A program made the position numbers. Shown here in pieces: positions 45,786 to 48,700 of a DNA stretch of 64,000 bases. This DNA comes from Octopus sinensis (taxonomy: Eukaryota): positions 25,978,001 through 26,042,000 of the forward strand of contig NC_043001.1 in NCBI RefSeq assembly GCF_006345805.1, given 5' to 3'. The first letter of the stretch is position 1. Each line of letters opens with the position of its first letter.

Positions 45786-48700
45786 CATACATACATACAT
45801 ATATACAATGGGCTTCTTTCAGTTTCCGTCTACCAAATCCACTCACAAGGCTTTGGTCGGCCCGAGGCTATAGTAGAAGACACTTGCCCAAAGTGCCATG
45901 CAGGGGACTGAACCCAGAACCATGTGGTTGGTAAACAAGCTACTTACCACACAGCCACTCCTGTGCCTATACATGTGTATAATAAACAAGACTACATTTC
46001 TGTAAAATGTCATCAGTACTTTAGCTCTAATTATCTTCCACTAAATATAGAAAAGAAAATATTGTCTGTATCCAGCATACACAAATGAGGCTATTTAATT
46101 AAAAATAGCCATCGACTGTGTATACATTAAGTATGATACAGTATCATTCTTAAAGTATACACAATGTTGATAGGCCAGTTACTGCAGTATTTTTCCTGAG
46201 ATAACATTTCTCGTGGCCTTGTTTAGTTATAAATTCAATGATTATCAGAGAAGCCAAAATGCATCTGGCACTCTTGCTAGCCACTGATGGAATGAATTTC
46301 ATCTCTCTCTGATATTTTTTTTTTAACACAACCAGTCCCTAAGAGACTATTAGATACTGCAGTAACTGGCCTACTGACGGTGTGTATACATTAAATATAA
46401 TACATAGATGGCTCTTTTCTGTATACTTAAAAAGACAGAATGGCTCAGAACAGAACCTTCATGAACAACTATATATATATATATATATATGTCCTTTTAA
46501 TTATACAGAAAAGAGCCATCTAAGTATTATACTTAATGTATACACACAGTCAGTAGACTAATTACTGCAGTATTTAATAGTCTCTTAGGGACTGGTTGTG
46601 TTAAAAAAAAATATCAGAGAGAGATGAAATTCATTCCATCAGTGGCTAGCAAGAGTGCCAGATGCATTTTGGCTTCTCTGATAATCATTGAATTTATAAC
46701 TAAACAAGGCCACGAGAAATGTTATCTCAGGAAGAATACTGCAGTAACTGGCCTATCAACATTGTGTATACTTTAAGAATGATACTGTATCATACTTAAT
46801 GTATACACAGTAGATGGCTATTTTTAATTAAATAGCCTCATTTGTGTATGCTGGATACAGACAATATTTTCTTTTCTATATTTAGTGGAAGATAATTAGA
46901 GCTAAAGTACTGATGACATTTTACAGAAATGTAGTCTTGTTTATTATACACATGTATAGGCACAGGAGTGGCTGTGTGGTAAGTTGTTCATGAAGGTTCT
47001 GTTCTGAGCCATTCTGTCCTTTTAAGTATACAGAAAAGAGCCATATATATATATATATATATATTTACATTAATTGTTAATTTATCCTATAGCTTTCATA
47101 AATGGTATATTCATCTATGAAACCCAGGACTTATCCTATTCTTCCTGTATCTATAATCCCATGTAGTTTACAGTTTCAGTGTATGACAATTCTGGCGTAT
47201 ATAATATAGAAATCATATATCCAATATTCTTAGTATCTCAAGTATAATATATCTGACAAATGTAATACACAAAGCTTTTACATATTTTATCTTCTTGTCA
47301 TTGAATGTTGCACATCTAATTCATGTACTGCATACATATTGTCGCATATAATTTTTTTTATGAATAGAGCAAAAATTATTTTGTTGCCAATGATATTTTA
47401 TTGACACAGGGTATTTACATATCAATACAAGCATTTTAGATTTTTAGTATAAAACAAACAGTTGCTTTCATGTTTAATATTAGTTTTACCAAGCTAGTTT
47501 GGGTAAAGAGATTCTATAAACACAGATGTTATTTTTTGCTGTTGTTTGGCTCCATATTAGTTTTTGCCAAGCAGACTTCTATGATCAAACATGTTCCAGC
47601 TCTAACCATCCAGTTTTATTATTTATTTTATGGCATATCTAAGACTACATTATCTAAGCTGTCCTTTCTTTAAGACAATAACGTGTGGTCTGAGAGAAAT
47701 TTTTTTGTCTGCTATTTCTAGTTTGTAGAGAAACTGGGTAGAGGTTCCTTCATTGGCAGTTATGCATAGTTTTCACTATCAGTGGTGGATTGAGGTTGGA
47801 AATTCATTGATTACGAGAGAAAAACACAATATGGCTAGAAGGGTTTATTTATGAACCAGCAAGCATAGCAGTAAATATTTACTTCTTATATAGTACGTGT
47901 ATGTGTACTAGCATATAAAGCACACGTGCATGCTAACATAAAAATATTAAGTGTTCAACAGTTGGAAGCAAACATTTAAGTTAATTATTTTCAAACCTAA
48001 TCTATAAATACTCTCTTAAACAATGAAAAATAGGTTTGAGTAATTTCTTATGTAAACAGGCAAACAGTGGAATCAATATATATACTGATAATGTCAATAT
48101 TTGTTCACTGTAATAAACTGAAGAAAGAAACAAAATTAAGTAAAAAAAATTTAACATATGAGTAAAGACAAAGCAGTAGCATGGCTAAGGAGATTGATAT
48201 ACAAATCTCCACATTATTTTTGGGTTCAGTCCCACTGTATGGCATATGAGCAAGTGTCTTCTACCATTGTAAAAGAATTTGGTAGATAGGGACTGTGCAG
48301 AATTCCCCTTATATGCTGCTGCTGCTGCTACTATTACTATTACTACTACTACTACTACTACTACTACTATGCTGTCATCATCATTTTAGCATCCACTTTT
48401 CCATGCTTGCATGTATCAAGCAGGAATTCATTAAGACAAATTTTCTACAGCTGGATGCTTTTCCTATCACCAATCCTCACCTGTTTCCAAGCAAGGTAAT
48501 ATTTTTATGGAAAAACGAGAAACACGGGACTCCACAAATATGATGGCAATGCTCGTTTATAACTATCCTTTGATGTCAAGATAAGGAATCACAATACACA
48601 GTCATACACACGTGCACACACACATACATATACAACAGGTTTCTTCTGGTTTCTCTCTATCAAATCTACTCCCCAAGTTTAGGTAATCTTGGGGCTATAG

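What the first reader, a model, noticed from the sequence alone, without database searches (positions are those of the whole stretch)
45942..47044. Circularly permuted inverted duplication: footprint of a reinserted DNA circle or rolling-circle copy
Seen: the donor 45942-46470 (529 bp) is followed by (AT)n and an inverted insert 46491-47044, then (AT)n again. The insert reads the donor backwards from 46436 to 45942, jumps at a 3-nt ACT microhomology to the donor's other end (46470), and continues to 46408. It therefore covers one full turn of a 529-bp circle plus 29 bp, leaving a terminal direct repeat (46491-46519 and 47016-47044; both have GTCCTTTT where the donor has GTCTTTTT). Mismatches are uneven: 2 substitutions and 1 indel in the outer ~400 bp, but 9 substitutions in the first ~90 bp copied. 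The arms also contain an older internal inverted repeat (about 46100-46425). Inference: a microDNA/eccDNA formed by microhomology, was copied by error-prone rolling-circle or MMBIR synthesis, and reinserted at the adjacent AT microsatellite. This creates a ~490-bp hairpin.
Basis: partly seen in the sequence, partly recalled or inferred. Interest (0 to 1): 0.7.

Follow-up and report, generated by a model that had tools for sequence, protein, structure and literature searches.

The report
Local fold-back duplication at AT microsatellite
An octopus intron-like region carries a real 554-base inverted, order-permuted copy of the neighbouring 529 bases, most likely made when DNA copying jumped between strands three times at an AT repeat, a known kind of mutation that needs no free DNA circle.

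Summary
46491-47044 is the reverse complement of [46408-46470]+[45942-46436], joined at a 3-nt ACT overlap. There are 12 substitutions and one 1-nt indel. The arms fold into a ~495-bp hairpin.

New here:
- The left breakpoint cuts 29 nt into the head of an interspersed SINE, so the left copy is the original.
- The two flanking (TA) runs are 21 and 22 nt, as if duplicated rather than split.
- A three-switch copying path on a single-(TA)n ancestor reproduces the locus.
- The mismatch cluster is real (9 of 11 arm substitutions in 84 of 495 positions). Its changes fall about equally on donor and insert, which argues against error-prone synthesis.

A free circle with rolling-circle copying is not excluded. 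It is not needed, and it fits poorly with an insertion 21 nt from the donor's own end. Best reading: serial microhomology-primed template switching at a (TA)n stall or break, possibly extending an older short fold-back.

Genome-wide copy number, read support and an empty site could not be checked.

The parts
45810..45970 (-). Interspersed SINE-like repeat. Its 5' head is at 45970 and its tail runs into the (TATG)n/(TA)n tract to the left.
   Evidence: Six other copies in the window at 87-92% over 160-185 nt. An alignment of 7 copies fixes the shared edges. The tRNA-like A/B boxes were seen by eye against recalled consensus motifs; ARAGORN and Rfam give no hit.
45942..46470 (+). Donor unit, 529 nt. 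Its first 29 nt are the SINE head.
   Evidence: It is the original copy because it is contiguous with the complete SINE.
46470..46490 (.). First (TA) run, 21 nt. It forms the palindrome centre together with the donor tail 46437-46469.
46491..46984 (-). Inverted copy of donor 45942-46436. Junction 1 has a 1-nt (T) microhomology.
46491..46574 (-). Mismatch-rich inner zone, the copy of donor 46353-46436. It holds 9 substitutions in 84 nt.
   Evidence: Polarisation.
46956..46984 (+). 29-nt fragment of the SINE head, cut off at the fusion junction. It marks the insert as the derived copy.
46982..46984 (.). Fusion junction 45942/46470 with a 3-nt overlap (ACT in donor sense, AGT as read here).
46985..47044 (-). 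Inverted copy of donor 46408-46467. It has 1 substitution, and junction 3 shares AT with the (TA) run.
   Evidence: (I3).
47016..47044 (+). Right copy of the 29-nt terminal direct repeat. The left copy is 46491-46519; they differ at 1 base.
   Evidence: (D6).
47043..47064 (.). Second (TA) run, 22 nt.
46117..46403 (.). Older nested fold-back structure inside the donor: a 47-nt palindrome at 46117-46163 (89%) and 50-nt arms 46141-46190 / 46354-46403 (82%) around a 163-nt spacer.

Best explanation
This is a germline structural mutation in an octopus genome, not a gene or a mobile element. At a stalled fork or break in a ~21-nt (TA)n tract, one growing DNA strand left its template and made three short-homology jumps.
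1. After copying the donor and the (TA)n, it switched to the opposite strand at 46436 (1-nt overlap). It then copied backwards to 45942, inside a SINE head.
2. It jumped 529 nt on that same template to the (TA)n edge at 46470 (ACT overlap) and copied back to 46408.
3. It returned through an AT overlap to the start of the (TA)n on the original template and went on into the right flank.

The backward jump in step 2 gives the 'circular permutation'. The return upstream of the departure point gives the second (TA)n. So the circle is a path of the polymerase, not a released molecule.

The mismatch-rich inner 84 bp is not copying error. Most likely it is an older short fold-back insert whose arms later primed the extension. 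Alternatively, the palindrome centre mutates faster in both arms.

Shown: the anatomy, the polarity (donor first), the junction overlaps, the clustering, and the symmetry of the changes. Inferred: the order and direction of the switches, the enzymes involved, and the two-age history.
For: (1) A three-switch path on a hypothetical ancestor with one (TA)n reproduces the observed 1401 nt with 12 mismatches and 1 gap column.
(2) All three junctions carry 1-3 nt overlaps: T, ACT, AT.
(3) The donor is intact and contiguous with a full SINE, while the insert holds only the SINE's first 29 nt fused to 46470. The event was therefore copy-gain from the left unit.
(4) The insert starts 21 nt from the donor's end. 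Landing point 46470 and return point 46471 adjoin at the (TA)n edge.
(5) The flanking (TA) runs are 21 and 22 nt. The other 27 of 29 runs of at least 12 nt in the window are 12-37 nt, so none is as long as the 43 nt that a split tract would need.
(6) The unit body 45984-46469 has no further copy in the window.
(7) The donor already holds older nested inverted repeats. A second, spacerless palindrome abuts another (AT)n at 1712-1843. This hints at a recurrent process.
(8) Against synthesis error, using the older arm 46141-46190 as outgroup for the 7 differences in 46353-46404:
- 3 are insert-derived (46366/68/70);
- 3 are donor-derived (46353, 46395, 46404);
- 1 is ambiguous.
The triplicated 29-mer adds one donor-derived change (46433) and one insert-derived change (46426).
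(9) A step model fits the mismatch density better than exponential decay (lnL -41.2 against -44.8, changepoint at 84).
(10) Template switching that creates inverted repeats and hairpins, including returns upstream of the departure point, is an established model (PMC7954356, passages).
Against: One assembled sequence cannot separate a linear template path from a circular template, because both predict the same letters.
- Junction 1 has only a 1-nt overlap, which is weak priming unless an older inverted repeat was already there.
- A 554-nt insert is much longer than typical break-templated fold-back insertions. Most are ~5-34 bp in yeast (PMC11724301, abstract only).
- The two-age sub-model needs five junctions in all, against three for a single event.
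- The outgroup used for polarisation is only ~80% identical and covers just 7 sites.
- Microsatellite lengths change quickly, so 21 against 22 nt is soft evidence.
- No empty site, second haplotype or read data were available.
Confidence: 0.6

Rival explanations
1. A 529-bp circle (microDNA/eccDNA) closed at the ACT microhomology, was copied for 1.05 turns by rolling-circle or MMBIR synthesis, and the linear product was inserted in inverted orientation into the adjacent (TA)n.
For: - The block order is permuted, with a single fusion junction joining the donor's two ends. This is the footprint used to infer circular intermediates in human duplications (PMC7188851; PMC7450558).
- 529 bp lies within the quoted microDNA size range of 200-3000 bp (PMC9578701, passage).
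- Both terminal repeats share G at 46433 where the donor has A. One mutated circular template read twice would give this.
Against: - The insertion is 21 nt from the circle's own origin, and one circle end coincides with the edge of the target microsatellite. For a free molecule this is a large coincidence; a cis path explains it.
- The donor is not deleted, so the circle itself would need a replicative origin.
- Both (TA) runs are full-sized. End-joining into a break would not duplicate the tract.
- Takahashi and Innan exclude candidates in which one block flanks the copy on both sides, as here, because tandem-type copying mimics the footprint.
- Chicote et al. list a non-tandem, distant location as a feature of their cases.
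- The shared G is equally explained by a later change in the donor. Three other inner-zone changes also map to the donor.
Confidence: 0.1
2. A multi-step history with ordinary events. The 529-bp unit first duplicated in tandem (junction 46470/45942). A 554-bp piece spanning that junction was then copied in inverted orientation beyond the (TA)n. One tandem copy was later lost by unequal exchange or single-strand annealing.
For: The insert covers more than one unit, which is exactly what a copy of a tandem junction looks like. This is the published false-positive scenario for circle footprints (PMC7188851, Results and Fig. 4 legend).
Against: - It needs three independent events.
- The deletion must restore precisely one unit.
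- No trace of a second direct copy exists left of 45942 or right of 46470.
- It does not explain why the unit ends exactly at the (TA)n edge.
Confidence: 0.08
3. Assembly or library artefact: a fold-back chimeric read or an amplification chimera was built into the consensus.
For: Inverted joins with short overlaps are a known form of strand-displacement and long-read chimeras (my own recall, no call). No read data were available to test this.
Against: - The arms differ by 12 substitutions, 7 of the 11 distinct ones being transitions. That looks like evolutionary divergence, not a chimera of one molecule.
- There are three junctions, not one.
- The structure lies inside 64 kb of otherwise ordinary sequence, with unique flanks on both sides.
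Confidence: 0.05
4. The unit is a mobile element (foldback element or MITE) that inserted at a TA target.
For: - TA-rich flanks lie on both sides.
- The unit has internal inverted repeats.
Against: - The insert is a copy of the immediately adjacent sequence and includes a truncated fragment of a neighbouring SINE.
- Its ends are direct repeats, not inverted ones (D6).
- There are 0 further copies of 45984-46469 in the window.
A genome-wide count could not be made.
Confidence: 0.03

Closest known systems
Replicative template switching (FoSTeS/MMBIR and the short-range 'four-point' template-switch model; Walker et al. 2021, PMC7954356, passages read; FoSTeS/MMBIR as summarised in PMC7450558 Discussion)
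   Same: - A reverse-complement copy of nearby sequence is made.
- Junction overlaps are short.
- No material is lost.
- New inverted repeats and hairpins are created.
- The return point lies upstream of the departure point, which duplicates the stretch between them.
   Different: - There are three switches rather than two.
- One switch is a same-strand backward jump of 529 nt that mimics a circle.
- The copied tract (554 nt) is longer than the tens of nucleotides modelled for short-range events, and far shorter than clinical kb-Mb rearrangements.
- The event is anchored on a self-complementary (TA)n.
Circular-intermediate duplications (Takahashi and Innan 2020, PMC7188851; Chicote et al. 2020, PMC7450558; the cattle colour-sidedness translocations that these papers cite)
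   Same: - Donor and copy have swapped block order.
- A single fusion junction carries a 2-3 nt microhomology.
   Different: - Those cases are at least 500 bp to hundreds of kb and lie at distant sites.
- They cover at most one turn.
- This copy is inverted, abuts its donor, overruns one turn by 29 nt and has the target tract duplicated.
Fold-back / snap-back templated insertions at double-strand breaks (SD-MMEJ, Pol theta end joining; PMC2943611, PMC5728401 and PMC11724301, search listings and abstracts only)
   Same: - The insert is inverted and templated from the flank.
- Cycles of annealing, synthesis and dissociation are primed by 1-3 nt.
- Secondary-structure-forming sequence lies at the break.
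   Different: The size differs greatly: 554 nt here against mostly ~5-34 bp in the yeast study's abstract.
Inverted-repeat-seeded palindrome growth (fold-back inverted duplications, PMC3907307; ODIRA, PMC10766183; listings and abstracts only)
   Same: If the inner 84-bp arms are older, a short inverted repeat seeded a strand switch that lengthened the palindrome.
   Different: - Those models yield kb-Mb duplications, dicentrics or hairpin-capped extrachromosomal DNA.
- Here the strand returned to its template after about 0.55 kb.

Membership tests
Circular-intermediate (eccDNA) duplication | Donor and copy show swapped block order with one fusion junction joining the donor's two ends | tested here: met
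   rc(insert) = [46408-46470]+[45942-46436] with an ACT overlap.
Circular-intermediate (eccDNA) duplication | No block is present on both sides of the copy (the conservative filter of PMC7188851 against tandem-type mimics) | tested here: not met
   29 nt (donor 46408-46436) are present at both ends of the insert. The filter is described.
Circular-intermediate (eccDNA) duplication | The copy lies at a non-tandem, distant site (feature iii in PMC7450558) | tested here: not met
   The insert begins 21 nt after the donor's last base. The feature is quoted.
Circular-intermediate (eccDNA) duplication | Physical circle carrying the fusion junction | not testable with these tools
   No read or Circle-seq data were available.
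Serial template switching (FoSTeS/MMBIR, four-point type) | The inserted sequence is fully templated from nearby sequence, with at least part in reverse complement | tested here: met
   every base of the insert aligns to the donor within 1.1 kb.
Serial template switching (FoSTeS/MMBIR, four-point type) | Short overlap at each junction and no long homology | tested here: met
   Overlaps are T (1 nt), ACT (3 nt) and AT (2 nt). Under the two-age sub-model, junction 1 would instead be homology-driven.
Serial template switching (FoSTeS/MMBIR, four-point type) | Copy-number gain without loss; the stretch between return and departure points is duplicated | tested here: inconclusive
   The donor is intact. 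The (TA) runs are 21 and 22 nt, against 12-37 nt for the other 27 runs. Microsatellite length is labile and the ancestral state is unknown.
Serial template switching (FoSTeS/MMBIR, four-point type) | An ancestral allele without the insert (empty site) exists | not testable with these tools
Mobile element (MITE / foldback element) | Multiple dispersed copies | tested here: inconclusive
   There are 0 other copies of 45984-46469 in the 64-kb window.
Mobile element (MITE / foldback element) | Terminal inverted repeats at the ends of the inserted unit | tested here: not met
   The ends of the insert are a 29-nt direct repeat (D6).
Break-templated snap-back insertion (SD-MMEJ / Pol theta type) | Short insert (tens of nt) templated from the break flank | tested here: not met
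   The insert is templated from the flank, but it is 554 nt long. The size range comes from the abstract of PMC11724301 only.

The most novel reading that the evidence does not exclude
The insert really is the rolling-circle copy (1.05 turns) of a 529-bp germline microDNA. The circle would have formed at a (TA)n break and been captured in repair of that same break. That would make this a base-resolution, evolutionarily fixed footprint of small-circle reintegration in an invertebrate. The shared G at 46433 would then be a circle-borne change read twice.
Probability: 0.1. Interest if true: 0.6.

Novelty: new member of a known kind. Interest (0 to 1): 0.3.

Why it matters
This is a clean, fully resolvable example of how one local copying accident creates a ~495-bp hairpin from unique sequence.

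It also gives a practical caution. A 'circularly permuted' duplicate next to its donor is not evidence for a DNA circle. A backward jump on a linear template gives the same letters. Polarising the differences with internal paralogues can test the 'error-prone synthesis' idea.

The locus probably sits in an intron of a minus-strand gene (inference). If so, the hairpin would be transcribed as long double-stranded RNA, the type of substrate used by RNA editing and small-RNA pathways. New structures of this kind are therefore raw material for such regulation in cephalopods. That last step rests on general knowledge and was not tested.

A second palindrome abutting an (AT)n in the same window suggests that a genome-wide census might show (TA)n tracts to be hot spots for fold-back duplication in this genome.

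Tried and rejected
- Error-prone synthesis as the cause of the mismatch cluster. Rejected as the sole cause, because about half of the polarisable changes are on the donor. By my own hand calculation, not a tool result: if all 7 arm differences were insert-derived, each insert allele would match the ~82%-identical outgroup with probability ~0.06, so 3 or more of 7 matching has P ~0.008.
- Quasi-palindrome correction or conversion from the older arm. Rejected. The insert's inner repeat is less complementary (79%) than the donor's (82%). The three insert=outgroup sites are separated by sites where the insert differs from the outgroup.
- A short-range template switch as the source of the triple change 46557/46559/46561. 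There are 0 matches of 8 nt or more spanning the three bases on either strand in 45000-48000, against ~1.1 chance 8-mer hits in shuffles. No support.
- Known RNA families and tRNA. Rfam at gathering thresholds gives 0 matches in the window. ARAGORN gives 0 genes in 45600-47200.
- Coding potential. 8 stop-to-stop frames of at least 130 aa exist in the window. I sent 5 of the 8 to Pfam; 4 gave nothing and 1 hit PF25228. None overlaps the finding in a meaningful way. The frame 45452-45934 is microsatellite plus SINE and was not sent.
- Tandem Repeats Finder on 44000-49000 reports only the AT tract 45702-45805 and a CTA tract at 48328-48369. There is no 529-nt tandem array.
- Gene conversion homogenising the outer arms of an old palindrome. 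Kept as a minor alternative for the identity step, not rejected. It also needs the separate ~60-nt terminal piece to be converted. That piece has 1 difference; P(1 or fewer) = 0.011 at the inner-zone rate, computed on 58 positions.

Unchecked:
- genome-wide copy number of the unit;
- read support;
- an empty site in other haplotypes or species;
- circle libraries, small RNAs and RNA editing.
Supplementary files of the papers were not opened. Table S2 of PMC7188851, which lists its candidates, might hold comparable small cases.
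Full report
**What is there**

The region was read directly and searched for repeats. I aligned the reverse complement of 46491-47044 (554 nt) to the permuted donor [46408-46470]+[45942-46436]. The alignment has 558 columns, of which 16 differ:
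- 12 substitutions;
- one 1-nt gap in a T-run (46315);
- 3 columns that are the double-counted ACT, present both at 46468-46470 and at 45942-45944.

So the insert covers one full turn of the 529-nt unit plus 29 nt. This leaves a 29-nt direct repeat at its ends (46491-46519 and 47016-47044, 1 mismatch). The flanking alternating-AT runs are 46470-46490 (21 nt) and 47043-47064 (22 nt). Folded as single-stranded DNA, 45942-47064 forms one long hairpin, with 45942-46436 paired to 46491-46984 and an MFE of -561.5 kcal/mol.

**Context**

The window is AT-rich eukaryotic DNA (29-42% GC in 2-kb steps) with many microsatellites. A frame at 2549-3154 (minus strand) hits Pfam PF25228. Its exon is 95% identical to a 1211-aa hypothetical protein that NCBI names from Octopus vulgaris. 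tblastn places three exons of that protein on the minus strand:
- residues 845-885 at 26860-26738 (100% identity);
- residues 892-914 at 9621-9553;
- residues 909-952 at 3106-2975.

No exon was detected between 27 and 64 kb, even at E up to 20. The window is thus from an octopus, species not determined. The finding probably lies in an upstream intron of this gene; that is an inference. Rfam and ARAGORN find nothing at the locus.

**Polarity**

Positions ~45810-45970 are one copy of an interspersed SINE-like repeat. Six other copies occur in the window at 87-92% identity. The alignment of 7 copies shows the shared sequence ending at ~45970. By eye the element reads on the minus strand, with tRNA-type promoter boxes near its head. 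Those motifs are recalled and are not confirmed by any tool.

The left breakpoint 45942 lies 29 nt inside that head. The insert carries only these 29 nt (46956-46984), fused to the complement of 46470. A full element beside the left unit and a truncated scrap in the right unit mean two things: the left unit is the original, and the event came after the SINE insertion. The unit body 45984-46469 has no other copy in the window. Within this limited sample it is not a common repeat.

**Is a circle needed?**

No. I took a hypothetical ancestor in which 46490 is followed directly by 47065 and traced one strand along this path:
1. copy to 46490;
2. switch to the complement of 46436 and copy down to 45945;
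3. switch to the complement of 46470 and copy down to 46408;
4. return to 46471 and continue into the flank.

This path gives the observed 1401 nt with 12 mismatches and one gap column. The junction overlaps are T, ACT and AT. The 'circular permutation' is simply the backward jump of 529 nt on one template.

Three features favour a cis, replicative path over a released and reinserted circle:
- The insert begins 21 nt from the donor's own end.
- The second landing point (46470) and the final return point (46471) adjoin at the edge of the (TA)n, where a hairpin in the self-complementary tract would expose single strand.
- Both (TA) runs are of ordinary full size. Of 29 runs of at least 12 nt in the window, the other 27 are 12-37 nt. 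A split tract would need a 43-nt ancestor cut almost exactly in half.

The literature on circle footprints uses swapped block order as its signature (PMC7188851, abstract, Results part 1 and Discussion; PMC7450558, abstract and Discussion). Takahashi and Innan exclude cases where one block flanks the copy on both sides, because tandem-type copying mimics the pattern. Chicote et al. list a non-tandem location among the features of their cases. This locus fails both conditions. The circle model is not refuted, because a circular and a linear template give identical sequence. I put it at about 0.1.

**The mismatch cluster**

Of the 11 substitutions along the 495-nt arm, 9 lie in the 84 positions nearest the centre. 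The binomial P is 4.6e-6, and 0 of 2000 permutations reach the changepoint statistic. A step at position 84 fits better than exponential decay from the centre (lnL -41.2 against -44.8). Within the 84 positions the differences are evenly spread (KS P = 0.63). The separately copied terminal piece has 1 difference; P(1 or fewer) = 0.011 at the inner-zone rate, computed on 58 positions.

I polarised them in two ways.
- For the 7 differences in 46353-46404, the older paralogous arm 46141-46190 serves as an outgroup. Three are insert-derived (46366, 46368, 46370; GGCCAG became GACTAA). Three are donor-derived (46353, 46395, 46404, where the insert equals the outgroup). One is ambiguous (46379).
- For the 29-mer that exists in three copies, 46433 differs from both insert copies and is therefore donor-derived, or was a variant of the template. 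46426 differs only in the left insert copy and is therefore insert-derived.

The tally is about 4 donor-derived, 4 insert-derived and 1 ambiguous. The excess is symmetric, so it is not explained by a sloppy polymerase writing the insert.

Explanations that fit a symmetric, step-like excess, with my own rough weights given that the structure is real:
- An older short fold-back insert (about 84 nt, the typical scale for such events) whose arms later primed the 0.47-kb extension: ~0.4.
- Faster mutation of both arms next to the palindrome centre: ~0.3.
- An old event whose outer arms and terminal piece were later homogenised by arm-to-arm conversion: ~0.2.
- Synthesis errors plus chance: ~0.1.

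The two-age model also removes the weak 1-nt priming at junction 1, since an 84-nt, 90%-identical inverted repeat would prime the switch. It costs two more junctions in total. Seven of the 11 distinct substitutions are transitions, which is unremarkable. The triple change has no alternative local template.

**Other readings**

A multi-step history (tandem duplication, inverted copy of the junction, loss of one tandem unit) is possible but needs three coincident events. An artefact is unlikely given 12 substitutions between the arms, three junctions and unique flanks. A mobile element is unlikely because the insert copies its neighbour, including a SINE scrap, and ends in direct rather than inverted repeats.

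**Comparison with known systems**

The event works like replicative template switching, as in FoSTeS/MMBIR and the four-point model. That model explicitly includes returns upstream of the departure point and the creation of hairpin-forming inverted repeats (PMC7954356, passages). It resembles break-templated snap-back insertion in logic but not in size (PMC11724301, abstract only). If the inner arms are older, it resembles inverted-repeat-seeded palindrome growth (PMC3907307 and PMC10766183, listings and abstracts only). I file it as a new member of a known kind.

**Limits**

Everything rests on one assembled sequence. The paper supplements were not seen.

**Verdict**

The best explanation is serial microhomology-primed template switching at a (TA)n (0.6). 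Interest is 0.3.

Noticed in passing
window 1712-1843: A near-perfect, spacerless palindrome: arms of ~66 nt, 98.4% over 129 nt, centre GGAAGCTTCC at 1777/1778. Its right arm runs straight into an (AT) run at 1842-1856. It is unique in the window. It could be a second, smaller fold-back duplication anchored on an AT microsatellite, or a foldback-type element.
   Followed up: partly
window 26738-26860, 9553-9621, 2975-3106 (minus strand): Three exons matching residues 845-885 (100%), 892-914 (87%) and 909-952 (95%) of a 1211-aa Octopus vulgaris hypothetical protein with Pfam PF25228 (Lips). Introns are ~17 kb and ~6.5 kb. No upstream exon was found at 27-64 kb, so the finding is probably intronic.
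   Followed up: partly
window 5884-6064, 11070-11242, 17773-17932, 29132-29312, 30126-30293, 60722-60881, 45810-45970: One ~160-nt SINE-like family has 7 copies at 87-92% identity in 64 kb. Each is followed at its tail by TA/CA/TATG microsatellite. Rfam and ARAGORN do not recognise it.
   Followed up: partly
window 15780-15980 and at least 10 other sites (e.g. 4226-4401, 6637-6789, 15200-15361, 18681-18853, 42552-42715): A second interspersed ~170-nt repeat family. Two copies in opposite orientation give the 147-nt inverted repeat 15805-15951 / 18681-18827.
   Followed up: no
window 46557-46561 (donor 46366-46370): Three substitutions within 5 nt (GGCCAG to GACTAA in arm orientation), all derived on the insert. 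This looks like a single multinucleotide change. No local alternative template was found.
   Followed up: yes
window 46117-46403: A 23-nt motif occurs three times in the donor: 46117-46139 (+), 46141-46163 (-) and 46381-46403 (+). It frames the older inverted repeat. The layout (a direct repeat at both ends of an inverted structure) echoes the younger event in miniature and suggests repeated fold-back events at this spot.
   Followed up: partly
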